In this document: one piece after another, positions 29,969 through 46,045 of the stretch
How positions within the stretch are numbered: position 1 is the stretch's first letter
How the letters are laid out: every line of letters starts with the position of its first letter
Source: Candidatus Hadarchaeota archaeon
GTDB taxonomy: Archaea > Hadarchaeota > Hadarchaeia > Hadarchaeales > JAWBSP01
Direction: 5' to 3'
DNA: 64,000 bases
Assembly: GCA_964474885.1 (NCBI GenBank)
Contig: CAYYWO010000003.1
Coordinates: 57,337-121,336 of the forward strand
Made by a program: the position numbers and the translations under genes
Notes under the pieces: generated by a model
Database searches by the model: none
Told to the model about the DNA's origin: nothing
Seen by the model: the letters and a program-made list of their open reading frames with translations, nothing else

Positions 29969-31196
29969 GCATCCCGAGCTGGCTGCTTTGGGCCGGTCAA
30001 GGATAGAATGGGCTACCCAGCACATGCCCGTTTTGGCCAGGATAGCCAAGGAGTTGGAGGAGAGAAAGCCCTTGAAAGGCCTGCGTGTGGGGTTAGCGCT
30101 CCACGTAGAGGCAAAGACTGCAGTTCTCGTGAGAACTCTGAGCCGAGCTGGAGCAAAAATCACCATTGCGGGTTGCAACCCCTTGTCTACTAAGGATGAG
30201 TGTGCTGCGGCCCTGGCGGAGGAGGGGCACGAGGTCTTCGCGTGGAGGGGTGAGACGGAAGAGGAGTATTGGGAGAACTTGCGTTCTGTCCTTGAAACGC
30301 GTCCCCAGCTTATCATCGATGATGGCGGGGACCTGACCTCCTTAGCCCACAGGATGGGTGTGAGTGGGATCTTTGGTGCTTGCGAGGAGACTACCACGGG
30401 AGTGAACCGGGCAAAGCAAATGGAGAGGGAGGGCATCCTGAGGTTCCCCATAATAGCGGTTAACGACACGCCGTCAAAACGTCTGTTCGACAACAGATTC
30501 GGAACGGCCGAGTCCACCCTCCAGGCAGTGTTAACGATAACAAATCTGCAGCTATCTGGGAAAAGGGTGGTGGTAGCGGGGTACGGGCATGTTGGGAGGG
30601 GGATAGCCTCTAGGATGAAGGCAATGGGTGCAGTTGTTTACGTGGTTGAGGTGGATCCGATCAGAGCCCTGGAGGCAGCCATGGACGGTTTCATCGTCAC
30701 GGACATGCAGGAAGCCTCTCGCGTGGGGGACATCTTCATTACGTGTACAGGGAGCGTCAACGTGATAAGGAAGGAGCACTTCTCCCAGATGAAGGATGGG
30801 GTCTTGCTGGTGAATGCCGGGCATTTTGATGTCGAGATAGACCTCAGGTCCCTCAGAGACATGGCAAAGGAGCACAGGAAGGGCATCCAGGATGTTGAGG
30901 AGTTCGTGCTGCCGGATGGTAGGAGACTCTACGTCCTGTGTCAGGGGAGGCTGGTAAACCTAGCCGGGGAACACTCAATGGGGCACCCATGTGAGATAAT
31001 GGACATGAGTTTTTCGCTCCAAGCCCTCTCGCTCTGCTATCTAGTGGAGCACAGGGATGAAATGAAACCAAAGGTCTACCCAGTACCGGAGGAAATCGAC
31101 AAGAAAGTAGCCACATTAAAACTCCTCTCCTTGGGAGCAAAGCTGGAGGCTCAAACAGAGGAGCAGATCAGGTACAGATCAAGTTGGTTGCTCTGA
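29955..31196 (+). CDS. ahcY: Adenosylhomocysteinase.
   Basis: 'RIEWATQHMPVL', the NAD-binding 'VVVAGYGHVGRG' and the C-terminal 'HLPKKLDEKVA-like' region. The start is trimmed to ATG 29955 (M19 of the track ORF). Confidence 0.85.
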   Translation: MTRIKHPELAALGRSRIEWATQHMPVLARIAKELEERKPLKGLRVGLALHVEAKTAVLVRTLSRAGAKITIAGCNPLSTKDECAAALAEEGHEVFAWRGETEEEYWENLRSVLETRPQLIIDDGGDLTSLAHRMGVSGIFGACEETTTGVNRAKQMEREGILRFPIIAVNDTPSKRLFDNRFGTAESTLQAVLTITNLQLSGKRVVVAGYGHVGRGIASRMKAMGAVVYVVEVDPIRALEAAMDGFIVTDMQEASRVGDIFITCTGSVNVIRKEHFSQMKDGVLLVNAGHFDVEIDLRSLRDMAKEHRKGIQDVEEFVLPDGRRLYVLCQGRLVNLAGEHSMGHPCEIMDMSFSLQALSLCYLVEHRDEMKPKVYPVPEEIDKKVATLKLLSLGAKLEAQTEEQIRYRSSWLL

Positions 31197-32720
31197 GAAT
31201 GCCCAGGCGAATTTCCTGAGAAGGCTGCGAGTGTAAATCCGCTCAACCTCCACCTCCACTTGTTTCGCCCACCTAGCGTAGATCTCAGGATTTATGTAGC
31301 TCCTCAATGAGGTGGCCAAGTTGTAGCCCTTAGTCTTTTTTACAAGATCGAGCTTGAGTTTTTGCTCTCTCAACCTCTGTCTCAGCTTGCGCAACCTCTC
31401 CCGGTTTCTCTTGGTCATCCTCTTCTTTTTCAACTTCTCTATCCGCTCCTGAATCTGCTTTATCCTCTGTTGCATTCTCTCAACCCTCTCCTTCCACTTT
31501 TTCGGCGGTTTTTTCTTGTGGTTCAGAATTCTAGCTGCTCTGAGGTTCGCCATCTTAGCGACATAGACTTTTTTGTAGGGATGGTCCCTACTGCTTAGCC
31601 TGGCTTCCCTCAAAGCTTTTTCAACCTCCTTGCTCGCATAATAGGTCCTGAAGACCTTTGCGGTGATGCCGGGCACTATTTTTCCAAGGAACTCATTAAC
31701 CTGCTCGCACCTCACGTCCGGGAAAATCCTGGAACTTTTGCTCTTTTCCATACATTCCTTGAGATTCCTGACGACTTGGGGCGGCATTCTGACGATTCGC
31801 CGGAATCTAACGGCCCCCTTGCCCAAGAAGTCGAATTTGACCTTGTCCTCCCCTAGTATTTTCACGTTTGACTTCTTGAGAGTGGTTGCACCAACTGTGT
31901 CGAGCTCGTCGGGATCTTTTTCATCCCCTACCCTTATCTTCAGGAGGTCGATGAGGTAAGCGACCGTGGCTATCTTCCTTACTTGGGGGTCGGGGGACTC
32001 TAAGCCTCTTAAGATGTGTTTCTGCATCTCAGGAAGCTTCTTCTCGAGTTCTTTAGCGAGTTCAAACTTCTTTTTCTCTCTTTCTTGCTTGATCTTGGCT
32101 GTATCCGCAATCCAAATGTACTTCATTTTTCCGGTTAATTTGTCCCTCCACTTCGCAATCCAAAGAGCATTCGGTTCCCATACCCTTCCTCCCCAAGAGC
32201 TTCCATCTGGGGTTGGGGGAGTGGGAGCGTCTGGGGATAGGTTCAGGATTATGTCAGAGTAGTGAACTCGGGGTTTCCACCTGCCCCTGAGAGGATGTTT
32301 TCCTCTTCCCACAAAAATGCAGGGGGGCTCAACTCTGTAATTGACTTCCACTTTCTGGCCATCGATTATAGCATACCCATATTTCTGCTTTCTTTCTTCG
32401 TTTTCCTTCTTCCGTCTTTCCGCCAATTCTTTTTTGTGCTCCTTGGTCAATGCTTGGTTTGTTTCAATCCACTTCCTGATCTCACTAAAATCGAAGTCCT
32501 CCAGTTTTCCGCCGTCCAAGTTCAGTGCCTTGCAGAAGTCCCGTAGGAAGTTGCGGACGAAGACAGGATCTTCCAGACGTTCGGGAGAGCATTTGACGAA
32601 AGCCAAGGCCATCTCTTCTTGTTCCGGGTTCAACTTGATTTCCTTTCCTCGGAAACGAATCTTAAGACCTTTTGGTTCATACGGTGGAATAAATACTCCG
32701 TTGTGAACGAGTTGGAGCAT
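31179..32720 (-). CDS. Eukaryotic-type DNA topoisomerase IB.
   Basis: The core and catalytic regions include 'KYIWIADTAKIKQ', 'RIVRMPPQVVRNL' and the C-terminal 'LATSLRSYINPEIYARW' (equivalent to the active-site Tyr motif 'SKINY'), separated by a Lys/Arg-rich linker. Confidence 0.8.
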   Translation of the reverse strand: MLQLVHNGVFIPPYEPKGLKIRFRGKEIKLNPEQEEMALAFVKCSPERLEDPVFVRNFLRDFCKALNLDGGKLEDFDFSEIRKWIETNQALTKEHKKELAERRKKENEERKQKYGYAIIDGQKVEVNYRVEPPCIFVGRGKHPLRGRWKPRVHYSDIILNLSPDAPTPPTPDGSSWGGRVWEPNALWIAKWRDKLTGKMKYIWIADTAKIKQEREKKKFELAKELEKKLPEMQKHILRGLESPDPQVRKIATVAYLIDLLKIRVGDEKDPDELDTVGATTLKKSNVKILGEDKVKFDFLGKGAVRFRRIVRMPPQVVRNLKECMEKSKSSRIFPDVRCEQVNEFLGKIVPGITAKVFRTYYASKEVEKALREARLSSRDHPYKKVYVAKMANLRAARILNHKKKPPKKWKERVERMQQRIKQIQERIEKLKKKRMTKRNRERLRKLRQRLREQKLKLDLVKKTKGYNLATSLRSYINPEIYARWAKQVEVEVERIYTRSLLRKFAWAFSEQPT

Positions 32721-32738
32721 AACAAATGGACGGAAGAC

Positions 32739-33167
32739 TTATGTTACCCTTATGTAGCGCAGGATTTGATTGGCAGGCTTGTAGACGATCGTTATTACGT
32801 CGCCGAAGGCAAGTGGCTTTGGAGCTTGGACATATAGAACATCTCCTGCACTCAAAGTGATCATGCCTTGAGGATTGTTATCCCCGTTGTACGACACAAT
32901 AGTGGCATTTTGACCATTTACCCGTACAATAAGGTTGTTCCAGCTTTTACCGTTAATGGCATCCTTGATGTTATCCCCACCCATATGGTAGATTGTGAAA
33001 TTTTCGTAGCCGCTTGATGCGTTCTCTAACATGAGGTTTACATTCACTGGAGTGGGAACAGTTCCAACAAGTCCCGTTGCGATCACGGCCACCATCGAAA
33101 CCAACAAGACTGTAACGACAATCAGTAGAACTGTTGCTATTACTGGAGATACTCCGTTCTGTTGCAT
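32739..33167 (-). CDS. Archaeal type IV pilin/archaellin-like protein with a class III signal peptide (DUF361-type).
   Basis: 'MQQNGVSPVIATVLLIVVTVLLV' is a prepilin-peptidase site (G|VSPVIA) followed by a hydrophobic helix, then a beta-rich C-terminus. Confidence 0.65.
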   Translation of the reverse strand: MQQNGVSPVIATVLLIVVTVLLVSMVAVIATGLVGTVPTPVNVNLMLENASSGYENFTIYHMGGDNIKDAINGKSWNNLIVRVNGQNATIVSYNGDNNPQGMITLSAGDVLYVQAPKPLAFGDVITIVYKPANQILRYIRVT

Positions 33168-33182
33168 TATAATTATCTTCCC

Positions 33183-33191
33183 TATAAATAT
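33183..33191 (-). promoter_or_regulatory. Candidate TATA box for the pilin gene.
   Basis: 'ctataaatatt' lies about 17-24 nt upstream of the pilin ATG (33167) on the minus strand. Confidence 0.3.
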
Positions 33192-33193
33192 TA

Positions 33194-33976
33194 GTGGAGG
33201 GAGGGCAGGTGATCCCGACTGGGGTTAAGTCAGTCGACCTATTAGTTGGAGGGGGTGTAAGAGCTGGATCCCTTATCCTTTTATATGGACCACCCAAGGC
33301 ATTCAAGTCGGAATTTCTAGCAAATGTAGCAGTCATTTGGGCGGCAATGAAAGAAGGCAAACTCAAACCACCAAGAAACGTGAAGATCCCTAGGACAACT
33401 TGGTATCTTTGTTTATCAAAATCTCCTACTGAAATAACCAGCTCGGTCAAAAATATGTTCAGCAAGAAGTACTTTGAACTCTTCAAGAGGAATGTCAAGT
33501 TTTTAGACTTGAGCAAGGAGTACTCAGCCCTTGTAGGTTCATTCTGGGAAAAGCAGAAAACACCAGATGTGAGAAAATTCGTCCTCAGCATCGTCAACAA
33601 ACTCAAAAAGATCGGCCCGGAATCCCTACTGTTCATCTACACGCTGACTGACATAGCGAGACTCCTGCATGAGAGACCGGTAGAGTTCTTGTCCTTTATG
33701 GAGGGTCTTCGCACGGCCGCACACTCTTGGAAGGGAGTGGTTTATGGAATCCTGAGGAAAGGGGCCCTTCCAACAGCTATGGAGGAAGATATTTTATCCA
33801 TCTCCGACGGCACATTTTACTTTGATGTTGAGAAGGTTGGTACCAGCGAGAGATACACTTTGACGTTACTGGCCCTCAGTGGAGTCCCCACCTCTGCCTT
33901 AGGTCAAGTTTTCGAAATTTCAGTCACTTCAGATGGATTTCACGCTGAGGCAGTCAAATCCATCCTCGGGGTCTAG
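33194..33976 (+). CDS. ArlH/FlaH-like KaiC/RecA-family protein with a degenerate Walker A (probable pseudo-ATPase).
   Basis: 'IPTGVKSVDLLVGGGVRAGSLILLYGPPKAFKSEFLANVA' aligns to the FlaH N-terminus ('GGGIP.GSL.LIEGD.GTGKS') but has GPPKAFKS in place of GxxGxGKS. It uses a GTG start. Confidence 0.5.
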   Translation: MEGGQVIPTGVKSVDLLVGGGVRAGSLILLYGPPKAFKSEFLANVAVIWAAMKEGKLKPPRNVKIPRTTWYLCLSKSPTEITSSVKNMFSKKYFELFKRNVKFLDLSKEYSALVGSFWEKQKTPDVRKFVLSIVNKLKKIGPESLLFIYTLTDIARLLHERPVEFLSFMEGLRTAAHSWKGVVYGILRKGALPTAMEEDILSISDGTFYFDVEKVGTSERYTLTLLALSGVPTSALGQVFEISVTSDGFHAEAVKSILGV

Positions 33977-34122
33977 TCTATTTTTTCGATCTCCTTGGAG
34001 CAGCAAAAAGGGCAGAGTAGAATCTTGTTTCCACGGTCTAAAAACAGTGCTGGTTCGGAAAATTCGTACGAGCAATTTTTACATCGAAATTTAGCTTTAG
34101 CTTTCTTCTGCTTCTCCTTCAT
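33973..34122 (-). CDS. Small zinc-ribbon protein (49 aa), absent from the supplied ORF track.
   Basis: Hand translation of the minus strand gives MKEKQKKAKAKFRCKNCSYEFSEPALFLDRGNKILLCPFCCSKEIEKID, a CxxC...CxxC pattern with a Lys-rich N-terminus. It fills the gap between the ArlH-like and MinD-like genes. Confidence 0.35.
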   Translation of the reverse strand: MKEKQKKAKAKFRCKNCSYEFSEPALFLDRGNKILLCPFCCSKEIEKID

Positions 34123-34157
34123 CTTCCCTCCGTATCATTATCGGTATAAACGGATTA

Positions 34158-34874
34158 TTGGATTGGAGGATGATATACGCGATAATATCCGGGAAAGGGG
34201 GGGTGGGGAAAACAACCTTGGCCGCGAACCTAGGCCCACTAGCTGCGGAGCTTGGTAAAAAGACGCTTTTGGTTGATACAGATTTAGCCGCTGGAAATCT
34301 TGCTCTTTATCTGGGCTTAACCGAACCGAGTAAGACCCTCCACGACTTGTTGGCAGGGGAGAAAGATATACATTCCTGCATATATTCCCTCCGTGAAGGT
34401 CTCGATGTCCTGCCAGCTGGCCTTTCCCTAAAGGGATTTTTGAAAGCAGACATAGCCGGGCTCCCGCAACTCATGAAGAAAGTAACCAAAGGTTATGAAG
34501 TCGTAATTTTAGACACGCCCCCTGGTATAAGCAGGAATAGCATAGTCCCGTTGAAGTGCGCAGATCTAGCAGTTCTCGTCACCACGGCGGATCCACCCTC
34601 CCTAACCGTTAGCGTAAAGATGAAGGCCATAGCTTCCATTCTCGATAGGAGGATTGCTGGAACGGTCATAAACCGAGTAGAGAAAGGATTTTTAAAGAAG
34701 AACAAGCCAGCGGTCATTGCCAAGCAGCTGGGAACGGAAATCGTGGGCACTATCCCCGAGGACGATAAAGTAAAACAGTCAATTGAGCTCGGGAAGCCCA
34801 TTGTTCTCCACCGACCCAAATCGCAGGCTTCTAAAGCTCTTAGAGCGATCGCGTTAAGTCTTTTTGGCGGATAA
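34158..34874 (+). CDS. MinD/ParA-family P-loop ATPase (TadZ/CpaE-like).
   Basis: The deviant Walker A 'ISGKGGVGKTTLAANLG', 'VLVDTDLAAGNLALYLG' and 'VVILDTPPG'. Confidence 0.7.
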   Translation: MDWRMIYAIISGKGGVGKTTLAANLGPLAAELGKKTLLVDTDLAAGNLALYLGLTEPSKTLHDLLAGEKDIHSCIYSLREGLDVLPAGLSLKGFLKADIAGLPQLMKKVTKGYEVVILDTPPGISRNSIVPLKCADLAVLVTTADPPSLTVSVKMKAIASILDRRIAGTVINRVEKGFLKKNKPAVIAKQLGTEIVGTIPEDDKVKQSIELGKPIVLHRPKSQASKALRAIALSLFGG

Positions 34875-34897
34875 ATCAGTTCTACTTTAGGTAATAG

Positions 34898-36547
34898 ATG
34901 AAAAAATCTAAACTTAAGTCCAAACTCAAATCGGAGCAGCTCAGTTTGCTGAAGATTGAGGAAAGGGATGAAGAACTGGAGCAGCTCAGGAGTTATAGTG
35001 ATAAAATAATGGGTGAGAGCATTCACCTCTCTCCCTCTCCAACCACCTACGATCCGATCAGATTCGGCCCCCTCGTCTCTTTCCGCTTGCCAGAAGGGTA
35101 CACAGAAGTCGAGAGGTATTGGCTGGATCCTCCTTTCGCCTTCGTGGTGGTTCTTGAAGACAAGGGTACAGGCAAAACAACTTATCATATAGTCGAACCA
35201 GAGCTAACACCATTCGAGCGCGCACTCTTGGACAAAATAAAGGATGAATTGTACGATAGATTGCCCTATGAGGGTTCTAGAGAACCGGAAAAAGTGTTTG
35301 AGAGAGCCTACGCGGAAGTTGCTAGAGCTCTAGGAGTGAAGGATTGGCGCATGTACCACAAGCTGTTGTACTTCCTGAAAAGAGAAACACTCGGGTTCGG
35401 CAAGCTGGATCCAATTTTTAAAGACAGGAATGTCGAGGATATTTCATGTGATGCTCCTGGTGTGCCAGTTTTTCTTTACCACAGGAAGTACTACAACATA
35501 GAAACTAATCTCATCTTCGATCGGGAGGAACTAGATACCTATGTGATGAGACTCGTTGAAAGGAGCGGAAAGCATGTTTCACTAGCCAGGCCAGTTGTGG
35601 ATGCTACACTCCCAGGAGGTCATCGTCTTGAGGCAACCTTTGCAACTGAGGTGACGAGCAAGGGAAGTTCTATGTCCATTCGAAAATTCATGGGCGGCAC
35701 TTTTACTCCAGTTGACTTGATAAGATTCGGAACTTTCAGTCCATCTATGCTCGCCTACCTCTGGATAGCAGCGGAGAATAGAAAAAGCATAATGGTTATT
35801 GGGGGCACAGCTGCGGGGAAGACCTCCACCCTGAACGCCCTCGCCTTCTTCATACCACCGGACGCCAAGATAGTGACGATAGAGGATACACGTGAGCTCT
35901 CCTTGTACCAACAGAATTGGATCCCTATGGTGACTAGGGAGGCTCCAGGGGAGGCGATGAAGATAGACATGTATGAGTTGCTCAGGCAGGCTCTCAGGCA
36001 GAGACCAGAGTGTTTGATTGTAGGAGAAGTGAGGGGAAGGGAAGCGATGACAATGTTTCAAGCTCTCTCAACTGGACATACCGCATACTGTACATTGCAT
36101 GCCGGAAACGTTCAGGAGGCAATTTTGAGACTGGAGAGCGATCCGATGAACGTTCCACACACCATGATATCTGCGCTGGATATAATATGTGTTCAAACGA
36201 TTGCCTATTTGGGAAAGAAAAGAGTCAGGAGAAATCAGCTTATCGCAGAAATCGTGGGGGTCACCCCACAAACTAAGGAGGTCAAACTTGTGGAGCTGTT
36301 CAGTTGGGATCCGTCAACTGACTCCTTTAAGGAATTGGCTGAACCCCCAAGTTGGAAGGAGATATGCAAGATGAGAAACATAGACAGGCTGGATCTCGAG
36401 AAGGAATATGAGAGGAGGGCGGAGTTTTTGGCAACAATGGCGGAGAAGGGCGTGACCGATTACGATGATGTATCGAGGCTGATAAACCTTTACTATTTCA
36501 ATCCGGAGAAGGCATTTGCCGAGTTGAGGGCATTTAAGAAACGGTAA
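34898..36547 (+). CDS. ArlI/FlaI-like type IV filament assembly ATPase (TadA/VirB11 superfamily).
   Basis: Walker A 'IMVIGGTAAGKTSTLNAL', the Asp box and Walker B 'IVTIEDTRELS', and the His box 'ALSTGHTAYCTLHA'. Confidence 0.8.
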   Translation: MKKSKLKSKLKSEQLSLLKIEERDEELEQLRSYSDKIMGESIHLSPSPTTYDPIRFGPLVSFRLPEGYTEVERYWLDPPFAFVVVLEDKGTGKTTYHIVEPELTPFERALLDKIKDELYDRLPYEGSREPEKVFERAYAEVARALGVKDWRMYHKLLYFLKRETLGFGKLDPIFKDRNVEDISCDAPGVPVFLYHRKYYNIETNLIFDREELDTYVMRLVERSGKHVSLARPVVDATLPGGHRLEATFATEVTSKGSSMSIRKFMGGTFTPVDLIRFGTFSPSMLAYLWIAAENRKSIMVIGGTAAGKTSTLNALAFFIPPDAKIVTIEDTRELSLYQQNWIPMVTREAPGEAMKIDMYELLRQALRQRPECLIVGEVRGREAMTMFQALSTGHTAYCTLHAGNVQEAILRLESDPMNVPHTMISALDIICVQTIAYLGKKRVRRNQLIAEIVGVTPQTKEVKLVELFSWDPSTDSFKELAEPPSWKEICKMRNIDRLDLEKEYERRAEFLATMAEKGVTDYDDVSRLINLYYFNPEKAFAELRAFKKR

Positions 36548-38307
36548 TGAGGTTGATCAATCCGGAAAAATATTCTGACCTCCGCTTAACACTCAGGAAA
36601 CTGAGGAAACCTCTCTCCCTGAATGAGTATCTGAACCAGAGCTTATTGCTGGCTTTAGTTGTGGGAATAGTTGTGGCAGCTGCTCTCTTTTTGTTCTCCT
36701 TTCTATTACACTTGCCTTCTCTCTTCATGTATCTGCCTTTCTTCTTGGCTCCGCTGAGCTCTTACTTGGTTTGGAGGATCATGCTGTGGTATCCCTGGAG
36801 CGCCGTAAAGGGTAGGGAAGTTAAGATAGATCTCATGCTTCCCTCAGCTGTTTCTTTCATGTATGCTCTCAGCAAGGGGGGGTTAACGGTAGCCGAGATT
36901 TTCCGGATGTTGAGTCAAGAGAGGGAAGACTATGGGGAAGTAGCGGTTGAGGCGGCTAGTTTCGTCCGAGAACTGGATTATCTTGGATATGATCCTGTTA
37001 CCGCCCTAAGGAACCTAGCTTCCACGACTCCCTCTCAGAAATTCAGGAGGCTAATAGAATTCCTCATCCCGGTGGTCCAGACGGGGGCAAATCTAGCAGA
37101 TTATTTTGCCCAGAAATGCAAAGAGCTATACGAGGCTGCCGAGGTCGATCAAAAAAGGTACTTGGACACCTTGGCATTCTATGCAGAATTCTATGTCATC
37201 CTGATGCTCTTTGCCCCATTGGTTCTGATCGTGACCCTGATGGCAGTCATGGCTTTTTATGGAGCCTCTATGATGATACTCTATATCTTGGGATATCTGC
37301 TCATCCCGCTCGGTTCAATCTTCTTTATAGTTCTCCTTAGCATGAAAGGCTTCGGAGTTATAGGTAGTAGGAAAGTTGAGCGCAAGAAATACTTCCGTAA
37401 AGTGCGCCCCCGCAATCAGATTGAGAAGAGCATGCTTAGGAGGCTGCTTCCAGCTGAGACAATGCCGGAAATCTTACTTCACCCAATGAGAGTTTTCAAA
37501 ACACAACCGCACCAGGTTATGTTTTTCAGCGGAGGTGCAGCTTCTCTCTTTTTGTTTTCTTTCTTCCCCCATATCAACTTGACTACACTATTCTATGCGT
37601 TTCTGATCCTCGTGGTACCTTTTATTATTTTCCATGAGATCTGGAGCAGGAAGTTGAGCCAACTGGTGGAATACCTGCCAGAGTTTCTTCATTCTTTTGC
37701 GAGTGCAGCCTCCGCTGGTGTCCCCCCAGCTCATGCCATAAAGCTGGTGCCCGCAAGGGAACTAGGCCCCCTGAGAGAGGATGTACAGAGGATGGTGAAA
37801 TACATTAATTGGGGGGACTCCTCAGTTGAAGCAGTTCACAAAGTGGAGAGAGAGTGCGGAAACAATTATCTCTCAAGGACGATGGCAGTAGTGAGAAGGG
37901 CATGCTTAGCAAAAGGTGAAATCGCTGATGTCCTCCAGGTTCTCGCAACCGACGCCACTCAGCTGAGAGCTTTGAAGAGGGAAAGATGGGCAGCGATGTT
38001 TTCATATGCGCTCATAGTCTACATTTCTTTTGCGGTCTTTCTTTTCTGCATGGTCATGCTGACGCGTTTTCAATCTCTAGGCCAATTAGCTACAACTACT
38101 CCAACCACAACAAAACTCGGCATGACGGCCCCAGTTTACCAGGTCAAAACGACAACCCCATCTGTTGTGTGGCATGCAACAATGCTGCAGGCATTTTTTT
38201 CTGGCTTGATAGCGGGGCAGTTCTCAACTGGTAGATTGTTCTCGGGGTTGAAGCACTCAGTTATAATGATGACGGTAGCATTTGTTGTTTTGAACTTTTT
38301 TGCCTAG
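36547..38307 (+). CDS. ArlJ/FlaJ/TadC-like polytopic membrane platform protein.
   Basis: 586 aa with two repeats of the T2SSF-like helical domain. It directly follows the ATPase, overlapping by one base. Confidence 0.7.
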   Translation: MRLINPEKYSDLRLTLRKLRKPLSLNEYLNQSLLLALVVGIVVAAALFLFSFLLHLPSLFMYLPFFLAPLSSYLVWRIMLWYPWSAVKGREVKIDLMLPSAVSFMYALSKGGLTVAEIFRMLSQEREDYGEVAVEAASFVRELDYLGYDPVTALRNLASTTPSQKFRRLIEFLIPVVQTGANLADYFAQKCKELYEAAEVDQKRYLDTLAFYAEFYVILMLFAPLVLIVTLMAVMAFYGASMMILYILGYLLIPLGSIFFIVLLSMKGFGVIGSRKVERKKYFRKVRPRNQIEKSMLRRLLPAETMPEILLHPMRVFKTQPHQVMFFSGGAASLFLFSFFPHINLTTLFYAFLILVVPFIIFHEIWSRKLSQLVEYLPEFLHSFASAASAGVPPAHAIKLVPARELGPLREDVQRMVKYINWGDSSVEAVHKVERECGNNYLSRTMAVVRRACLAKGEIADVLQVLATDATQLRALKRERWAAMFSYALIVYISFAVFLFCMVMLTRFQSLGQLATTTPTTTKLGMTAPVYQVKTTTPSVVWHATMLQAFFSGLIAGQFSTGRLFSGLKHSVIMMTVAFVVLNFFA

Positions 38308-39534
38308 TCAGGTGGGAATTTCCCCAGGAGCGGCTCTCCTCCGGAGAAGCACTATGAGCACAACGATCACAACGACCAACACGACCGCAACGAGCACCAT
38401 GTTGGTGCCAGCGGGCAGGGCGGTGGGTTGAGAAGGTGTCTTTACTTCCTTCCCGAAGATGTAGACTTTGTGCTCCTTGTCTGACCTAGAGGTGCAGGCT
38501 ATCATATAGTCCCCCCCATCTGACATGTCTATACTTTCCACGTTCCCCTCAATACCAGTGACCAAGGTAGACTTCCATTTCAAACTCTGCCCTTCGAGGT
38601 AGTAAACAGTAGCCATGTCAGCTGCGAAAACTTTAGTACCATCTGAGCTTATGGCTACCGAAGAAGCGGGGGAGGTGCTCTCCATGAGTAAGGTACTCGT
38701 CCCATCCCGCTTGTAAAGAATGAACTTCGCTGTTTCGCTTCCGGCAGCAGCGACCGCGCTGTTACCATCAGGTGTCACATCAACTCCGAATACGCAAACA
38801 CCAGGATTCCACTCTCTTACCACGCTTCCATTATCTGTCAGCATTAGCACCTTTCCATCTCGGGTCCCCGCAACTATCGTACTTCCATCGGCAGAGATAG
38901 CGACGCAGGTAGTGTATCCTTCCTTTACAAAGCGGAGGCCGCTATCATCGAAAATGTATAAACCATTGTCTGTGGCAGCTGCCGAAATCCGACCGTTTCT
39001 CGACAGAGCCACGGCAATTACAATGTATCCATATTTGCCCCTCCATAGGGGGGTTCCATCCTCCGAGAAAAGTGTAACGTGACCATCAGATGAGCCAGCG
39101 ATCACTCTTTTGCCATCACCCGAAATGGCCACAGCTCTAGCGTAAGGAGATATTTTCTCGACCTGATACTCCCACGACAGGGTTGCTTGTCCCGTTTGCT
39201 CCAAGGTGTTTGAGTAGCATCTTACCCACCCATCATTACATCCAGCTACGAAGGCCGAACCATCGGCAGAGATAGCCACGGAATTGACATAGGAGTAGCC
39301 ACTGTATTTGTACTCCCATGCTTTGGAAACTTTATTCCCCATAAGCTTGAACACCCAAATCTTCATCAAATCACCTCCCGCTACGAACCACTTTCCATCG
39401 GCGGACACTGATACCGAGTTTACCCAGTCACCACCTTCGTACTTAAAAATAGGTGAAGATTCGGTTTGGGCTAATGCTGCCAAGATGAGAGCTAGGCATG
39501 CAAGAACGCTGACAGTTCTTGCATCCTTCTTCAT
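38308..39534 (-). CDS. Secreted beta-propeller repeat protein with a C-terminal TM anchor.
   Basis: An N-terminal signal ('MKKDARTVSVLACLALILAALA'), at least 7 repeats of the form 'V.IS.DG...VAG..DG.V', and a C-terminal 'VLVAVVLVVVIVVLIVLLRRR'. The start is trimmed to M5. Confidence 0.5.
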   Translation of the reverse strand: MKKDARTVSVLACLALILAALAQTESSPIFKYEGGDWVNSVSVSADGKWFVAGGDLMKIWVFKLMGNKVSKAWEYKYSGYSYVNSVAISADGSAFVAGCNDGWVRCYSNTLEQTGQATLSWEYQVEKISPYARAVAISGDGKRVIAGSSDGHVTLFSEDGTPLWRGKYGYIVIAVALSRNGRISAAATDNGLYIFDDSGLRFVKEGYTTCVAISADGSTIVAGTRDGKVLMLTDNGSVVREWNPGVCVFGVDVTPDGNSAVAAAGSETAKFILYKRDGTSTLLMESTSPASSVAISSDGTKVFAADMATVYYLEGQSLKWKSTLVTGIEGNVESIDMSDGGDYMIACTSRSDKEHKVYIFGKEVKTPSQPTALPAGTNMVLVAVVLVVVIVVLIVLLRRRAAPGEIPT

Positions 39535-39962
39535 ATTATTCCCCATTTGGGTCTTCCCTTGTAGGTTAGTGAAAGGTAAGCGCCCACTATTAAGAGGAAA
39601 GCTCCAGCGGCATATAACACCAATGCGGCCCCCACTCCGCCGACGGCGCTCAGGATCATCAGTCCACCTCCTCTTTTTGGTTCATCCAGGACTACAACGG
39701 CCCCCACCAAGCCTATTAGTGCGAACGCCGCACCGATTGCTGGGAGGAAAATATTTTTAGGTGTAATCAGTGCGGTATAGGTCGCATATTCTTCGGGGAA
39801 CAAACCAGCTTGGCCGAGGAAGAAGGTTGCATAGCCTGCTAATGATCCAATCAAGCCCATTAGTCCACCCAACAGACCTATGATGCAAGCAGCGATGGCA
39901 CGCCGAGATAGTGAAGGCCTTGGACCTTCCGGAGAGGGTGTGGAGCTTGGCTTTACATCCAT
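39531..39962 (-). CDS. Small polytopic membrane protein.
   Basis: Three or four hydrophobic helices rich in Gly and Ala. It is upstream of and overlapping the beta-propeller gene. Confidence 0.35.
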   Translation of the reverse strand: MDVKPSSTPSPEGPRPSLSRRAIAACIIGLLGGLMGLIGSLAGYATFFLGQAGLFPEEYATYTALITPKNIFLPAIGAAFALIGLVGAVVVLDEPKRGGGLMILSAVGGVGAALVLYAAGAFLLIVGAYLSLTYKGRPKWGII

Positions 39963-39991
39963 CCGTATATCAACAAAGGGTTTAAAAAGCG

Positions 39992-40543
39992 ATGCGGACG
40001 AAAAATCTCTTTTTAACCGGTAGGCCTGGCTCGGGGAAAAGCAGCATAATCCAGAAGATCGTTGATGTGGTCTCCTCTCAGGGTCTAGATATTTGTGGTG
40101 TACTATGTCCAGAGATCCGAATAGGAGGAAAAAGAGTCGGTTTTAAAATAATAGAGCTCCGGACTCGTCAAGAGGACATTTTGGCCCATGTAGAGTTAAC
40201 GAATGGACCTCGCGTTGGGAAGTATAGGGTCAATTTGGTTGGAGTCGAGAAAATCGTGAGGGGGGCAATGAGTCTGATTGATGGCTCGGATATCATCGTT
40301 ATAGATGAGGTGGGTCCAATGGAGGTGACCAGTCAAGCCTTCAGAGCCTTCGTTCTAAAGAGCCTCGATAGTACGAAACCCGTTCTGGGGGCAATCCACA
40401 TGAGGACCCAAAGCGGTTTCATTGGAGGTATAAAAAGAAGATCGGATGTCCTGCTTCTGCATGTACAGCCCGAAAAGAGAGAGGAAATGTTTCAACGAGT
40501 TCTAGACATTGTTAAAGACATGCTAGACATTAAGGTAAGATGA
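39992..40543 (+). CDS. THEP1-family nucleoside triphosphatase.
   Basis: 'LFLTGRPGSGKSSII' (Walker A), 'IIVIDEVGPME' (Walker B), and a length of about 183 aa. Confidence 0.7.
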   Translation: MRTKNLFLTGRPGSGKSSIIQKIVDVVSSQGLDICGVLCPEIRIGGKRVGFKIIELRTRQEDILAHVELTNGPRVGKYRVNLVGVEKIVRGAMSLIDGSDIIVIDEVGPMEVTSQAFRAFVLKSLDSTKPVLGAIHMRTQSGFIGGIKRRSDVLLLHVQPEKREEMFQRVLDIVKDMLDIKVR

Positions 40544-40818
40544 AGATACCTTCAAAAATCAGAACTTACTGTCCCTATTGCGGCGCACACACCGAGCATG
40601 AAGTCTCGGTCCAAAAGAAAAGACCTGCGAGGAGCTTAAGTTGGGGCCAGAGGCAGTTTGCTAGAATAATGAAAGGTTATGGGAGCCAGCCACGTTCGGA
40701 GCAGCGACACTTCGCGAAAATAAGTAAGAAGGTATCACTCGTTCTCAGGTGCACCAAATGTAAGAAGGCTCACCAGAAGGTTGGTTTTAGGGCAAAGAAG
40801 TACGAAATCAAAGGGTAA
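40540..40818 (+). CDS. rpl44e: Ribosomal protein eL42 (L44e).
   Basis: 'YCPYCGAHTEHEV...RCTKCKKAH' is the C4 zinc ribbon typical of L44e. Confidence 0.85.
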   Translation: MKIPSKIRTYCPYCGAHTEHEVSVQKKRPARSLSWGQRQFARIMKGYGSQPRSEQRHFAKISKKVSLVLRCTKCKKAHQKVGFRAKKYEIKG

Positions 40819-40976
40819 TGCCGGGTAGATTCATCGTTGTTAAGTGTGAATGTGGTCACCAACAGGTGGTCTTCAGCCATGCTTCCATTCCCGTGAAGTG
40901 TCTGAAATGTGGGAAGACCATTGCCGTACCCACTGGGGGGAAAGCCCAGATCCTAGGTAAGGTGATAGCGTGGTGA
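40818..40976 (+). CDS. rps27e: Ribosomal protein eS27 (S27e), 52 aa, absent from the supplied ORF track.
   Basis: Hand translation gives MPGRFIVVKCECGHQQVVFSHASIPVKCLKCGKTIAVPTGGKAQILGKVIAW, a C4 zinc finger. The ATG overlaps the L44e stop (TAATG). Confidence 0.8.
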   Translation: MPGRFIVVKCECGHQQVVFSHASIPVKCLKCGKTIAVPTGGKAQILGKVIAW

Positions 40977-41755
40977 GGAAGGAGGCGGAGTACCCATCGG
41001 TGAACGAGCTAGTCGTTTGTACTGTGATTCAGGTTTTTGATGAAGGGGCCTTCGTGAGTTTGGACGAGTACGGTGGGAAAAGGGGGATGATACACTTGAG
41101 AGAAGTCGCCTCAGGTTGGATAAAGAATATCAGGGATCATATAAGGGAAAATCAGAAAGTAGTTTGCAGGGTGATCTCAGTCGACCCTAACAGGCGAATC
41201 ATAGACCTTTCAATTCGTCGAGTGGCAGAAAGCGAAAAGAAGCATAAGTTGAAGGAGTTCGAGATCGAAAATAGGGCGGAGAAATTACTTTTGCTAGCGG
41301 CAAAAAAACTCAGGAAAAACCTAGACAAGGCTTATCGTGAGGCAGGCTTTCCTCTCATGAGAAAGTACGGATCCCTATCTCAAGCTTTTGAACAGATCGC
41401 GCAGAAGGGTGAGGAGGCCTTGAAAGGCTTATCTCTATCAAGAGGGTGGGTTCGCTCATTGCTCTCAGTTTCTAGGGGTTTGGTGAGGCCCTCAGTTTAT
41501 CAAGTGAAAGGATACCTCATCCTAACCTGCGACAAACCGAACGGAGTCGAGGTGCTGAAAAACGCGATGTTGGAGGCAAAGCGAAAGGTTGGAGAAAAAG
41601 TTGAGTTTTATCTTGAAGGCTCACCACGGTACAGGATAGTCGCGAGAGGAGACTCATATAAAGAGGCGGAGGAGATCCTGCAGGAGGCATCAAATGCTGT
41701 TTTAGCTTTTGTCAAATCGGCCGGCGGAGAAGGGGAATTCAGGAGGGAAAAATGA
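40970..41755 (+). CDS. Translation initiation factor aIF2 alpha subunit.
   Basis: An S1 domain ('ELVVCTVIQVFDEGAFVSLDEYGGKRGMIHLREV'), then helical and alpha-beta domains. It uses a GTG start overlapping S27e. Confidence 0.85.
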   Translation: MVRKEAEYPSVNELVVCTVIQVFDEGAFVSLDEYGGKRGMIHLREVASGWIKNIRDHIRENQKVVCRVISVDPNRRIIDLSIRRVAESEKKHKLKEFEIENRAEKLLLLAAKKLRKNLDKAYREAGFPLMRKYGSLSQAFEQIAQKGEEALKGLSLSRGWVRSLLSVSRGLVRPSVYQVKGYLILTCDKPNGVEVLKNAMLEAKRKVGEKVEFYLEGSPRYRIVARGDSYKEAEEILQEASNAVLAFVKSAGGEGEFRREK

Positions 41756-41928
41756 GACTCAAGAGATGTCGAGCATGTGGGAGATACACCATGAGGGAGA
41801 TATGCCCCTCATGTGGTAGCAAGACGGGCTCACCACACCCACCTAAGTTTTCTCCTGAGGACAGATATGGTAAGTATCGTAGGCTTATGAGACTGGAAGC
41901 TCAGAAAAATGATGGATTCAAAAGTTAG
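41752..41928 (+). CDS. nop10: H/ACA RNP protein Nop10 (58 aa).
   Basis: Hand translation gives MRLKRCRACGRYTMREICPSCGSKTGSPHPPKFSPEDRYGKYRRL..., a Zn ribbon plus the conserved 'PPKFSPEDKY' motif. It follows aIF2alpha in the usual conserved order. Confidence 0.8.
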   Translation: MRLKRCRACGRYTMREICPSCGSKTGSPHPPKFSPEDRYGKYRRLMRLEAQKNDGFKS

Positions 41929-42649
41929 GTTCCTGTTCAAACCCCAGCTGAAAAATCCGGTCCTGATAGCTGGTTTGCCAGGTGTGGGTCAGATCGGAAA
42001 ACTTGCTTCTGACTTCCTTATTCAACAGCTATCCGCAAAAAAATTTGCCGAGCAACTGTCGCCATACTTTCCCCACTATGCAACTCTGGATCGTTCAGGT
42101 ATGCTCAGACCCACGTGCCATGAGTTCTTCTATGCCAATCACTCTAGGCGAGATCTCATAATCCTAACCGGTGAATATCCATTGACGAGCTGTGAGGGCC
42201 ACTACAAGGTGGCAATCGAAATCTTGAACGCAATGGAGAAGGTAGGAGTAAGGGAAATTTACACAATAGGCGGTTATATTCCTACTTCGGGGAAAGAAAA
42301 GGGGGAGGTTGTGATCATGCCGAACACCGAAGTCCTTTCTCGGTTGAGTTCAGGAATCGAGGTAGAAGTAGGCCCTGTGATCGGCTTGACGGGATTGCTT
42401 GTTTCTCTAGCTGGGTTAAGAGGGATCAAGGGGGCGATCCTCTTAGCGGAGGCTGGCGACCCGCTTGTAGATAGCCGATCAGCCAAGAAGGTTTTACAGA
42501 CTCTCTGTGGCATTCTCGATCTCAAGCTGAACTTGTCAGATTTGGATCGGCAAGCTGAAGTGCTGAGAGAGTGGGTCGAGAGGTTAAAGAAAGAGATCAG
42601 GAAGAGGGAGGCACCACCGGCGAAGGAAGAAACTTGGTATATATCCTAA
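41909..42649 (+). CDS. PAC2-family (proteasome assembly chaperone-like) protein.
   Basis: 'NPVLIAGLPGVGQIGKLASDFLI' is the PAC2 N-terminal motif. The length is about 246 aa. Confidence 0.55.
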   Translation: MMDSKVRFLFKPQLKNPVLIAGLPGVGQIGKLASDFLIQQLSAKKFAEQLSPYFPHYATLDRSGMLRPTCHEFFYANHSRRDLIILTGEYPLTSCEGHYKVAIEILNAMEKVGVREIYTIGGYIPTSGKEKGEVVIMPNTEVLSRLSSGIEVEVGPVIGLTGLLVSLAGLRGIKGAILLAEAGDPLVDSRSAKKVLQTLCGILDLKLNLSDLDRQAEVLREWVERLKKEIRKREAPPAKEETWYIS

Positions 42650-43959: not shown

Positions 43960-43987
43960 CGATAGCTACGGGTCCAAAAAGTTAGTC

Positions 43988-44284
43988 TTACTCGCCCTTG
44001 GCTAGGGTTATCTCGATGGTGGAGACGTTGACTTTTCTTCCGTCTTCGGTTTGCACAGTCTCCGTCCCTATGGAGATGTTTTTCACGCTGACGTCTGGCA
44101 GGAATCTCTGTCTCACGACTTCGGCCGTATCAACAGCCCTGTTTATTGCCCTACCCCTAGCCTTTATCGAAACCTCCTTGGCACCCTCGTGGAACTGTGT
44201 TATAACCGCCAAGACATAGTTCATCACTGGCTTGGACCCAATAAAGACGGCATTCCCCGCCTGTGTTTTTTGCTCGGCTGCCAT
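43988..44284 (-). CDS. albA: Chromatin/RNA-binding protein Alba.
   Basis: '[46 protein letters not shown]'. The start is trimmed to M14. Confidence 0.8.
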
Positions 44285-44302
44285 TATTACCCTCAAGGGT
44301 TC

Positions 44303-44311
44303 CTTTAAATA
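44303..44311. promoter_or_regulatory. Shared divergent TATA region for Alba and the thermosome gene.
   Basis: 'cctttaaatac' lies about 20 nt upstream of the Alba ATG (minus strand) and about 50 nt upstream of the thermosome ATG. Confidence 0.35.
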
Positions 44312-44361
44312 CCCGTATCCCACCGAAAAAGCTAAAAAAGGGGTTGAGCTCTTTGGACTTG

Positions 44362-46011: not shown

Positions 46012-46017
46012 ACAAAA

Positions 46018-46023: not shown

Positions 46024-46045
46024 AGCTGGAAATCCCCTGCTTTCT

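What the first reader, a model, noticed from the sequence alone, without database searches (positions are those of the whole stretch)
33194..33976. ArlH-like protein with a degenerate Walker A (GPPKAFKS)
The protein aligns block-for-block to the FlaH/ArlH N-terminus (LVGGGVRAGSLILLYG...). The P-loop, however, reads GPPKAFKS instead of GxxGxGK[ST]: the second conserved Gly is Phe and the Thr/Ser context is altered. This suggests an ATP-binding-deficient scaffold (pseudo-ATPase) rather than a KaiC-like autokinase.
Basis: seen in the sequence. Interest (0 to 1): 0.5.

Follow-up and report, generated by a model that had tools for sequence, protein, structure and literature searches.

The report
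Inactivated KaiC-like protein beside pilus genes
This gene in a hot-spring Hadarchaeota archaeon encodes a well-conserved KaiC/RecA-fold protein that has lost nearly all the residues needed to use ATP; it sits in a type IV pilus gene cluster, not an archaellum, so it is probably a nucleotide-independent adaptor of a kind already described in archaea.

Summary
ORF 33194..33976(+) (more likely start 33209) encodes a 255-260 aa protein with the P-loop G32-P-P-K-A-F37-K38-S39. The Gly-to-Phe/Tyr/Leu change is present in all 8 orthologues, and the gene is under strong purifying selection (dN/dS about 0.04), so it is not an error or a pseudogene.

The KaiC catalytic Glu pair is S75-K76, the Walker B Asp is Y149 (it aligns with SaFlaH D122, whose D122N mutant no longer binds ATP), and the K-x-R-G motif is A-L-S-G. 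K38-S39 are intact, so "Ser/Thr context altered" is wrong.

It is not an ArlH orthologue:
- The NCBIfam FlaH score is 26.8 bits against a cutoff of 194.
- The family profile matches KaiC (E 3e-22) far better than FlaH (E 3e-9).
- The locus is pilin / this gene / zinc-ribbon ORF / MinD / PilB3-like ATPase / TadC-like / beta-propeller, syntenic across Hadarchaeota.

It belongs to a rare archaeal family of about 160 clusters, all with degenerate sites, usually beside PilB3-type pilus genes and sometimes paired with a canonical KaiC-like ATPase. Inactivated KaiC domains ("iKaiC") and KaiC-pilus linkage are already published.

Verdict: partly supported, a new member of a known kind, modest interest.

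The parts
33209..33976 (+). Inactivated KaiC-like (iKaiC) gene, 255 aa. The mechanical ORF starts at GTG 33194 (260 aa). Residue numbers in this report use the 260-aa numbering.
33287..33310 (+). Degenerate Walker A, G32-P-P-K35-A-F37-K38-S39. The Gly before Lys is Phe, the middle Gly of GxxGxGK[ST] is Lys, and Lys-Ser are kept.
   Evidence: Position 37 is F/Y/L in all 8 close homologues. K38, S39, E40 and F41 are invariant.
33416..33421 (+). S75-K76 at the position of the KaiC catalytic Glu-Glu pair (VTFEES in KaiC).
   Evidence: Profile alignment to KaiC 8zn5 and column extraction. Family-wide, the second position is R/K/H in 102 of 113 members.
33638..33640 (+). Y149 at the Walker B aspartate position (LLFIY-TLTD against hhhhD-SLS).
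   Evidence: The alignment to KaiC VVIDSIT is. hhalign places Y149 on SaFlaH D122. D122N abolishes ATP binding in SaFlaH (PMC5019145).
33872..33883 (+). A227-L-S-G230 in place of the KaiC-family K-x-R-G motif (KFRG in most of this family).
   Evidence: The motif is lost only in the Hadarchaeal clade (ALSG, ALAG, SLAG, GLSG).
32739..33167 (-). Type IV pilin with a class III signal peptide (MQQNG|VSPVIATVLL...), transcribed divergently from the iKaiC gene.
   Evidence: Pfam Pilin_N E 2.2e-13, with no archaellin domain among the Pfam hits. Syntenic in L001, L004, L006 and L007.
33973..34122 (-). Unannotated 49-aa zinc-ribbon ORF (CxxC...CxxC), convergent with the iKaiC gene. It overlaps the iKaiC stop codon by 4 nt.
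   Evidence: The spacer is conserved with a period-3 pattern. The reverse-strand peptide is conserved in 5 loci. ORF coordinates. Weak Pfam Zn_ribbon_8 hit, E 0.002. tblastn 60-73% identity in 4 loci.
34170..34874 (+). MinD/FleN-type ATPase with the deviant Walker A GKGGVGKT. The mechanical ORF starts at TTG 34158.
   Evidence: NCBIfam minD_arch 205 bits, above its cutoff of 201.75. Pfam ParA, CbiA and AAA_31.
34898..36547 (+). PilB3-like type IV pilus assembly ATPase with a canonical Walker A (GGTAAGKTS).
   Evidence: Pfam T2SSE, PilB3_N and PilB3_C. NCBIfam FlaI 380.7 bits, below its cutoff of 550.
36547..38307 (+). TadC/PilC-like polytopic membrane platform protein. Its start overlaps the stop of the ATPase gene.
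   Evidence: Pfam T2SSF x2. NCBIfam ArlJ 77 bits, far below its cutoff of 550.
38308..39546 (-). WD40 beta-propeller protein with a hydrophobic N-terminal segment and a hydrophobic C-terminal stretch that looks like a membrane anchor. It is a conserved neighbour of the pilus genes.
   Evidence: Pfam WD40 and beta-propeller hits. Syntenic in L001, L002, L003 and L005-L007.

Best explanation
The gene encodes a single-domain KaiC/RecA-fold protein whose ATP site has been dismantled, that is, an inactivated KaiC or 'iKaiC'. It is a conserved component of a PilB3-type type IV pilus locus in Hadarchaeota.

Shown:
- The fold is KaiC/RecA.
- Four catalytic elements are lost or altered: the Walker A Gly, the catalytic Glu pair, the Walker B Asp and the K-x-R-G motif.
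- The gene is under strong purifying selection.
- Synteny with the pilin, MinD, PilB3-like ATPase and TadC-like genes is conserved.
- The protein belongs to a rare archaeal family in which almost every member has a degenerate site.

Inferred:
- It neither hydrolyses ATP nor autophosphorylates, and it most likely does not bind nucleotide.
- It acts as a nucleotide-independent adaptor or scaffold. It would do so by the protein-protein contacts that ArlH makes with ArlI, or that KaiC-family subunits make with each other. Its partner would be the PilB3-like assembly ATPase and/or the neighbouring MinD-type ATPase, which would then carry the nucleotide-dependent regulatory input.
- The aromatic F37 and Y149 may occupy the former nucleotide pocket. 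The family-wide E40 and the basic residue at position 76 may form a salt bridge there.
For: Fold:
- The AlphaFold2 model has pLDDT 95.8 and keeps the strand-loop-helix arrangement at the P-loop.

Active-site loss:
- F37, S75-K76, Y149 and A227-L-S-G230.
- In SaFlaH and PfFlaH, single Walker A Lys or Walker B Asp mutations abolish MANT-ATP binding. The PfFlaH mutants also bind FlaI much more weakly, and the SaFlaH mutants give non-motile cells (PMC5019145).
- The position of the last Walker A Gly varies freely among the nearest relatives (G, E, R, K, F, Y, L), as expected if P-loop geometry is no longer constrained.

The gene is functional:
- dN/dS is about 0.04 and there are no indels.
- The protein is 70-73% identical between loci. 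That is similar to MinD (64-68%), PilB (76-78%) and PilC (63-64%), and well above the pilin and the propeller (38-47%).

Pilus linkage:
- The gene order is the same in L001-L007, including two named Hadarchaeota genomes.
- Of 9 more distant family contexts, 6 have PilB3/T2SSF/pilin genes within 8 kb, 3 have an adjacent MinD, and 3 have a canonical KaiC-like ATPase immediately downstream.

Prior literature:
- KaiC-family ATPases are reported to be associated with archaeal T4P loci (PMC4858521).
- The iKaiC concept is cited in PMC5847659.
Against: - K38, S39 and E40 are invariant in the clade. The Lys-Ser pair is kept throughout the basal K-retaining subgroup of the family, which could mean that phosphate or nucleotide contact is retained.
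- No biochemical or structural test of binding was possible. Model coordinates could not be inspected, so the 'aromatic plug' and the salt bridge are conjecture.
- No physical interaction with PilB or MinD has been shown, and co-localisation is the only link.
- The iKaiC gene is separated from minD by a convergent small ORF and a T-rich stretch, so it is probably not co-transcribed with the ATPase operon.
- Three of the 9 distant family contexts have no pilus genes nearby.
Confidence: 0.6

Rival explanations
1. The protein is a non-canonical but still functional nucleotide- or phosphate-binding sensor. Its remodelled P-loop (GPPKAFKS) would keep Lys-Ser contacts and bind ATP, ADP or another phospho-ligand without hydrolysing it. 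The protein would then work like ArlH, as a ligand-dependent switch on the pilus ATPase.
For: - K38, S39, E40 and F41 are invariant in 8 orthologues under strong purifying selection.
- The Lys-Ser pair is kept in the whole basal subgroup, and one Hadesarchaea relative (P0015) has a fully canonical GESGAGKS.
- ArlH itself binds ATP but does not hydrolyse it (PMC5019145).
Against: - The Walker B Asp that chelates Mg2+ is Tyr here. It is H, F or Y in every K-retaining relative, including P0015. The much milder D122N change already abolishes ATP binding in SaFlaH.
- A bulky Phe replaces the Gly before Lys. By general knowledge of P-loop structures, that Gly's backbone NH contacts the beta-phosphate.
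- That position is hypervariable among relatives.
- The catalytic Glu pair and the K-x-R-G motif are also gone.
Confidence: 0.2
2. The protein is a true ArlH (FlaH) orthologue, and the locus is a divergent archaellum operon.
For: - JGI's pipeline names some orthologues 'archaellum biogenesis ATPase FlaH'.
- FlaH is the top-scoring NCBIfam model, although weakly.
- The neighbouring ATPase and membrane protein have FlaI and ArlJ as their best NCBIfam hits.
Against: - All three NCBIfam scores are far below the curated cutoffs: 26.8 against 194, 380.7 against 550, and 77 against 550.
- The filament gene is a 142-aa Pilin_N pilin and not an archaellin.
- No ArlF, ArlG, ArlC/D/E or ArlX candidates turned up among the locus genes scanned.
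- The ATPase carries the PilB3_N and PilB3_C domains.
- The family profile matches KaiC 13 orders of magnitude better than FlaH.
- hhalign of the clade against SaFlaH gives E 0.13.
Confidence: 0.03
3. The protein is the inactive subunit of a heteromeric KaiC-like ring. As in the distant family members that sit in tandem with a canonical KaiC-like ATPase, it would pair with an active KaiC-like paralogue encoded elsewhere in the genome. It would act in signal transduction more than directly on the pilus motor.
For: - In three distant loci the family member is followed within 0-9 nt by a KaiC-like gene with an intact GTGKT and Walker B Asp. In one of these a PAS-DUF835 sensor gene lies upstream.
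- KaiC-like proteins are proposed to be archaeal signalling hubs (cited in PMC5847659).
Against: - There is no second KaiC-like ORF anywhere in the 64-kb window.
- No KaiC-family gene is called next to it in the fetched parts of the orthologous loci.
- In Hadarchaeota and in L016 and L018 the constant neighbour is MinD, not a KaiC paralogue.
- The clade has lost the K-x-R-G motif that would contact a neighbouring subunit's nucleotide.
Confidence: 0.15
4. The degenerate motif is an artefact of a sequencing or frame error, or the gene is a decaying pseudogene.
For: None beyond the unusual motif.
Against: - An identical protein occurs in an independent assembly, and 7 further orthologues carry the same class of substitution.
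- dN/dS is about 0.04 and gene length is conserved.
- The AlphaFold2 model is very confident.
Confidence: 0.01

Closest known systems
ArlH / FlaH (archaellum KaiC-like ATP-binding protein; arCOG04148; PDB 4YDS, 4WIA)
   Different: - ArlH has a canonical GxxxxGK[ST] and a conserved Walker B Asp. It needs bound ATP to bind ArlI and it autophosphorylates (PMC5019145, PMC8978795). Here the Gly is Phe and the Asp is Tyr.
- ArlH keeps one Glu (E57-Q58 in 4YDS), whereas this protein has S75-K76.
- Sequence similarity is marginal: 26.8 bits against a cutoff of 194, and hhalign E 0.13.
- The locus encodes a pilus, not an archaellum.
Inactivated KaiC-like domains ('iKaiC') of archaea (Makarova, Galperin and Koonin 2017, as cited in PMC5847659)
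   Same: It is KaiC-superfamily homologous with a disrupted ATPase site. It is archaeal, and family members are encoded next to signalling or regulatory genes (PAS-DUF835, HK/RR, canonical KaiC-like ATPases).
   Different: The iKaiC examples I could read about are domains fused to REC, PAS or HalOD1. This one is a stand-alone protein fixed in a pilus locus with MinD. I could not read the 2017 paper, so I cannot say which arCOG, if any, covers it.
KaiC-family ATPases associated with euryarchaeal (clade 2, PilB3-type) T4P loci (arCOG01171, 01174, 01175; Makarova, Koonin and Albers 2016, PMC4858521)
   Same: KaiC-like genes are encoded in or next to PilB/TadC operons, together with FleN/MinD-family ATPases (arCOG00589).
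   Different: Those families are described as ATPases that typically autophosphorylate. The family here has lost its catalytic residues.
Pfam DUF7125 (PF23442) and KaiC (PF06745)
   Same: Precomputed faint or weak DUF7125 hits exist for the window protein and most family members. In my scan, 60 of 63 family members hit KaiC and 10 of 63 hit DUF7125.
   Different: The window protein itself reaches neither model's threshold (KaiC 13 bits against 26.6, and no DUF7125 hit). Only AAA_25 passes, at 28.5 against 27.
RecA-fold pseudo-ATPase scaffolds (Elp4/5/6, XRCC2 and other Rad51 paralogues, BcsE N-terminal domain)
   Different: They are analogues only. They differ in lineage, partners and cellular process, and no specific sequence relationship was found.

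Membership tests
ArlH/FlaH (archaellum component) | Scores above the curated family model (NCBIfam NF004723 FlaH, cutoff 194 bits) | tested here: not met
   26.8 bits, E 3.2e-6. hhalign of the clade against SaFlaH gives E 0.13. FlaH is absent from the PDB sequence hits of the protein and of its clade profile.
ArlH/FlaH (archaellum component) | Canonical Walker A GxxxxGK[ST], conserved in all FlaH sequences (PMC5019145) | tested here: not met
   The motif is GPPKAFKS, with the Gly before Lys replaced by F37. This position is F/Y/L in all 8 orthologues.
ArlH/FlaH (archaellum component) | Conserved Walker B aspartate (SaFlaH D122), required for ATP binding and, in PfFlaH, for FlaI interaction | tested here: not met
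   Y149 aligns to D122 and to the KaiC Walker B Asp. It is invariant in the clade.
ArlH/FlaH (archaellum component) | Encoded in an arl operon with archaellins, ArlF/G, ArlC/D/E or ArlX, ArlI and ArlJ | tested here: not met
   The filament gene is a Pilin_N pilin. The ATPase carries PilB3_N and PilB3_C and scores below the FlaI cutoff (380.7 against 550). The platform protein scores below the ArlJ cutoff (77 against 550). No other arl-like genes were found among the locus genes scanned.
ArlH/FlaH (archaellum component) | Single-domain KaiC/RecA fold | tested here: met
ArlH/FlaH (archaellum component) | Binds ATP, autophosphorylates and binds the motor ATPase | not testable with these tools
   This needs recombinant protein.
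KaiC superfamily (RecA-like, KaiC/GvpD/RAD55 group) | KaiC-type fold and significant profile similarity to KaiC | tested here: met
KaiC superfamily (RecA-like, KaiC/GvpD/RAD55 group) | Intact catalytic apparatus (Walker A GxxGxGK[ST], catalytic Glu pair, Walker B Asp) | tested here: not met
   K35 and F37 replace two Gly, S75-K76 replace the Glu pair, and Y149 replaces the Asp.
Inactivated KaiC-like proteins (iKaiC) | KaiC homology combined with disruption of the ATPase motifs, conserved across orthologues | tested here: met
   Of 113 family sequences, only 15 keep the Walker A Lys, only 1 has Glu at the second catalytic-Glu position, and 102 have R/K/H there.
Inactivated KaiC-like proteins (iKaiC) | Assignment to one of the iKaiC arCOGs defined by Makarova et al. 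2017 | not tested
   The paper and the arCOG profiles were not available.
Pfam DUF7125 (PF23442) | Score above the Pfam gathering threshold | tested here: inconclusive
   Only 'faint' precomputed hits exist. There was no hit in my scans of the window protein. Ten of 63 family members hit at E below 0.01.
Archaeal PilB3-type type IV pilus locus (context) | Pilin with a class III signal peptide, a T2SSE ATPase with PilB3_N/C domains, and a T2SSF platform protein | tested here: met
   Pilin_N E 2.2e-13, T2SSE E 2.7e-34 with PilB3_N and PilB3_C, and T2SSF E 2.5e-28.

The most novel reading that the evidence does not exclude
This may be a distinct, uncharacterised family of stand-alone KaiC-fold proteins that serves PilB3-type archaeal pili as a nucleotide-free counterpart of ArlH. 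The family appears to have dismantled its ATP site by two complementary routes. A basal group, which includes the Hadarchaeota, keeps the Walker A Lys-Ser but loses the Walker B Asp. A crown group keeps the Asp but loses the Lys. All members carry a conserved Glu after the P-loop and a basic residue at the catalytic-Glu site, which may mimic an occupied site. If this is right, ring or adaptor binding to the pilus ATPase has been uncoupled from nucleotide state, and control has passed to MinD or to a tandem active KaiC paralogue.
Probability: 0.25. Interest if true: 0.5.

Novelty: new member of a known kind. Interest (0 to 1): 0.3.

Why it matters
ArlH is the only KaiC-like partner of an archaeal type IV filament ATPase that has been studied, and its function depends on ATP binding and autophosphorylation. 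A conserved relative that has lost the nucleotide site, yet is still fixed next to a PilB3-type ATPase and a MinD-type ATPase, would be a natural experiment. It could show which ArlH-like functions need nucleotide and which need only the fold. It also warns against automatic 'FlaH' annotation, which could lead Hadarchaeota to be scored as archaellated or motile in metabolic reconstructions when this locus encodes an adhesion-type pilus. Beyond that, the result adds one more family to the already recognised set of inactivated KaiC-like proteins in archaea.

Tried and rejected
- A PDB sequence search with the protein alone and with the 8-sequence clade profile matched only the first 45 or so residues, to Rad51, RadB, RecA and KaiC. 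This did not help in placing the protein, so a broader family profile was needed.
- hhalign of the clade against SaFlaH was too weak (E 0.13) to argue homology beyond the superfamily. I used it only to map Y149 onto D122.
- The fold search against afdb50 was unavailable.
- The key paper on inactivated KaiC domains (Makarova 2017) is not held under its DOI or PMC id. A literature search for DUF7125 found nothing.
- Model coordinates are not exposed, so P-loop geometry, the proposed F37/Y149 pocket filling and the E40-K76 salt bridge could not be inspected.
- I searched the whole window for a second KaiC-like gene (an active partner) using two profiles and found none.
- dS is saturated for most orthologue pairs, so only 4 pairs gave a usable dN/dS.
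- The NJ tree has no support values and is only a rough guide to the two-route picture.
- I first read the conserved iKaiC-minD spacer as a possible regulatory RNA or DNA element, or as a forward-strand small ORF. I rejected the forward-strand ORF because 3 of 5 loci have an in-frame stop. The conservation is explained by a reverse-strand zinc-ribbon ORF.
- Considered and rejected: an archaellum operon, a pseudogene, and a frame error (see the rival explanations).
Full report
**1. Observation**

The P-loop region reads LLYG32-P-P-K35-A-F37-K38-S39-E-F, at nt 33287-33310 for G32-S39. Against the minimal Walker A GxxxxGK[ST], the glycine before the lysine is Phe. Against the KaiC-type GxxGxGK[ST], the middle glycine is also replaced (K35).

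The likely start is GTG 33209 (MIPTGV...), which follows a GGAGGGAGGG stretch. Gene callers chose this start for the identical protein P0001.

The motif is not an error or decay:
- An identical protein occurs in an independent assembly.
- Seven more orthologues (58-73% identity) all have F, Y or L at position 37, with K38, S39, E40 and F41 invariant.
- From IPTG to the stop, the 6 loci compared all have 254 codons.
- dN/dS is about 0.04 wherever dS is not saturated, for example L004 vs L006 with dN 0.016 and dS 0.38.

**2. What the protein is**

On its own the protein barely registers in family libraries:
- Pfam AAA_25: 28.5 bits against a cutoff of 27.
- Pfam KaiC: 13 bits against 26.6.
- NCBIfam FlaH: 26.8 bits against a curated cutoff of 194.
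- NCBIfam RadB: 25.5 bits against a cutoff of 278.

PDB sequence searches with the protein, or with its 8-member profile, match only the first 45 or so residues of Rad51, RadB, RecA and KaiC. FlaH is not among those hits. The "block-for-block" N-terminal similarity is therefore the generic RecA/KaiC-superfamily N-terminus and is not specific to ArlH.

An exhaustive profile search of 1.84 billion cluster representatives found only 160 relatives at E up to 1e-3, and 75 at E up to 1e-10. A 63-member family alignment (A2) gave three results:
- The profile matches KaiC over its full length at E 2.7e-22. It matches SSO2452 at 1.9e-14, PH0186 at 1.1e-10, and FlaH only at 3.4e-9 (4YDS) and 2e-6 (4WIA).
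- An AlphaFold2 model of the window protein has mean pLDDT 95.8 and pTM 0.92, with the strand-loop-helix arrangement kept at the P-loop.

The fold is clearly KaiC/RecA. It does not identify the protein as ArlH.

**3. State of the active site**

I mapped the protein through the family profile onto KaiC and onto SaFlaH. I recalled the 4YDS sequence from memory and verified it as 100% identical to the PDB entry, then aligned it with hhalign. The mapping shows these changes:

| Element | Canonical state | This protein |
|---|---|---|
| Walker A | GxxGxGK[ST] | G32-P-P-K35-A-F37-K38-S39 |
| Catalytic Glu pair | VTFEES in KaiC, TTEQ in SaFlaH | S75-K76 |
| Walker B Asp | SaFlaH D122 | Y149 |
| K-x-R-G motif | KFRG in most of this family | A227-L-S-G230 |

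All of these residues are invariant or conservatively varied in the clade.

In genuine FlaH, the single substitutions K33A or D122N (K53A or D140N in P. furiosus) abolish MANT-ATP binding. The P. furiosus mutants also bind FlaI with strongly reduced affinity, and the S. acidocaldarius mutants give non-motile cells (PMC5019145). A Tyr at the Asp position and a Phe at the glycine position therefore make loss of nucleotide binding likely. ATP hydrolysis or autophosphorylation is very unlikely.

This remains an inference, because the invariant K38-S39-E40 leave some room for residual phosphate or ligand binding.

**4. The family as a whole**

Among 113 family sequences, the key positions are as follows:

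| Position | State across the family |
|---|---|
| Walker A Lys | Present in only 15 (elsewhere N, H, A, V, Q or S) |
| Second catalytic-Glu position | R/K/H in 102 |
| Residue after the P-loop | Glu in 99 of the 107 sequences that have a residue here |
| Next residue | Phe in 101 |
| Walker B Asp | Kept in 86 |

A rough NJ tree without support values places the Hadarchaeal clade in a basal group. That group keeps Lys-Ser but has Y, H or F at the Walker B Asp (P0008, P0012-P0015, P0025). A larger crown group keeps the Asp but has lost the Lys.

Within the basal group, the glycine before Lys is G, E, R, K, F, Y or L. This variability suggests that P-loop geometry is no longer constrained. P0015, from other Hadesarchaea, has a canonical GESGAGKS but His at Walker B.

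**5. Genomic context**

The window locus runs in this order:
- Topo IB (-).
- Pilin with Pilin_N and a class III signal peptide (-, 32739-33167).
- iKaiC (+).
- A 49-aa zinc-ribbon ORF (-, 33973-34122).
- MinD (+, NCBIfam minD_arch 205 bits, above its cutoff).
- T2SSE ATPase with PilB3_N and PilB3_C (+, FlaI model 380.7 against 550).
- T2SSF/TadC-like protein (+, ArlJ model 77 against 550).
- WD40 propeller with a hydrophobic C-terminal stretch (-).

The same order is found in L001-L005 and in two named genomes, Candidatus Hadarchaeales and Hadarchaeota (L006, L007). The iKaiC protein is 70-73% identical across these loci. That is as conserved as MinD, PilB, PilC and Topo IB, and far more conserved than the pilin or the propeller.

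No archaellin and no ArlF, ArlG, ArlC/D/E or ArlX candidates turned up among the locus genes scanned. This is a PilB3-type pilus locus and not an archaellum.

Nine more distant family contexts were examined:
- Six have PilB3/T2SSF/pilin genes within 8 kb.
- Three have an adjacent MinD.
- Three have a canonical KaiC-like ATPase 0-9 nt downstream, with an intact GTGKT and Walker B Asp. One of these also has a PAS-DUF835 sensor gene upstream.
- Three have no pilus genes nearby.

The 64-kb window contains no second KaiC-like ORF.

**6. Most likely mechanism**

The best-supported reading is a nucleotide-independent KaiC-fold adaptor or scaffold of the pilus machinery. It would bind the PilB3-like hexameric ATPase and/or MinD through the protein surfaces that ArlH and KaiC subunits use. 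Nucleotide-dependent control would be supplied by MinD in Hadarchaeota, or by a tandem active KaiC paralogue in other lineages.

The fold, the motif losses, the purifying selection, the synteny and the family-wide linkage to pili are shown. Absence of nucleotide binding, the interaction partners and any ring formation are inferred. I put this at about 0.6.

The rivals are:
- A remodelled but still ligand-binding sensor (0.2).
- The inactive subunit of a heteromeric KaiC ring whose partner is encoded elsewhere (0.15).
- A true ArlH in a divergent archaellum (0.03).
- An artefact or pseudogene (0.01).

**7. Comparison with what is known, and novelty**

KaiC-family genes next to archaeal T4P loci, together with FleN/MinD ATPases, were described in 2016 (PMC4858521). 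Inactivated KaiC-like domains ('iKaiC') were described in 2017, as cited in PMC5847659. I could not read the original paper. Pfam's DUF7125 touches the family weakly. JGI's pipeline labels some orthologues 'FlaH' and others 'KaiC/GvpD/RAD55 family RecA-like ATPase'.

The finding is thus a new, uncharacterised member of a known kind. It has a particular decay pattern (Lys-Ser kept; Gly, Glu-Glu, Asp and K-x-R lost), and its locus is fixed in Hadarchaeota. A specialist would find it a useful contrast to ArlH but not surprising. I score interest at 0.3.

Noticed in passing
window 33973-34122 (-); also L001 about 7267-7398, L004 about 10800-10937, L006 about 8791-8919, L007 about 8786-8908: There is an unannotated, conserved 49-aa zinc-ribbon ORF (MKEKQKKAKAKFRCKNCSYEFSEPALFLDRGNKILLCPFCCSKEIEKID) between the iKaiC gene and minD. 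It is convergent with the iKaiC gene and overlaps its stop codon. Gene callers called no gene here in the 5 metagenome loci whose called genes were listed (L001-L005). It explains the period-3 conservation of the 'spacer'. It has only a weak Pfam Zn_ribbon_8 hit.
   Followed up: partly
window 38308-39546 (-): A 412-aa WD40 beta-propeller protein with a hydrophobic N-terminal segment and a hydrophobic C-terminal stretch followed by RRR is a constant neighbour of the pilus operon in all Hadarchaeal loci. It may be a surface component linked to the pilus.
   Followed up: no
window 31179-32720 (-): A eukaryote-type topoisomerase IB (Topoisom_I_N, Topoisom_I and Topo_C_assoc in the orthologous loci) lies directly next to the pilin gene. 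It is syntenic in all the Hadarchaeota loci fetched.
   Followed up: no
L010 6491-9484, L011, L012 7001-8812, L008 7258-9018: In Methanosarcinales-type, halobacterial and other loci, the family member is followed within 0-9 nt by a canonical KaiC-like ATPase (GTGKTTF and Walker B Asp intact). In L010 and L011 it is preceded by a PAS-DUF835 sensor gene and flanked by two PilB3/T2SSF gene pairs. This looks like a sensor / pseudo-KaiC / KaiC module.
   Followed up: partly
L014 7001-12070: One family member is followed directly by a MASE3-PAS histidine kinase, a receiver protein and a second PAS protein, next to two Pilin_N genes. This suggests a link between two-component signalling and this family.
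   Followed up: no
window 1-32000 against 32000-48000: G+C falls from about 0.52-0.59 in the first half of the window (which includes a ribosomal-protein operon at about 24-28 kb) to about 0.46-0.50 across the pilus locus and beyond. Conserved synteny argues against recent transfer.
   Followed up: no
P0052 (5992 aa), P0080 (1937 aa), P0106, P0117, P0148: Several giant proteins match only the C-terminal beta-rich part of the family profile (positions about 171-250), in 5-19 repeated stretches. I did not determine whether this is real repeat homology or compositional bias.
   Followed up: no
P0011 (597 aa), P0036 (461 aa): Two family members carry the iKaiC domain at the C-terminus of a longer protein, with N-terminal extensions of about 300 and 180 aa. 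These are fused architectures that I did not examine.
   Followed up: no
family alignment, Walker A +1 position against the catalytic-Glu position: In a subgroup with G-A-G-A-R-E-F (Arg at the Ser/Thr position), the otherwise basic residue at the second catalytic-Glu position is often D, A, E or T. This hints that one basic residue is needed in the former active site and can come from either position. I did not quantify it.
   Followed up: no
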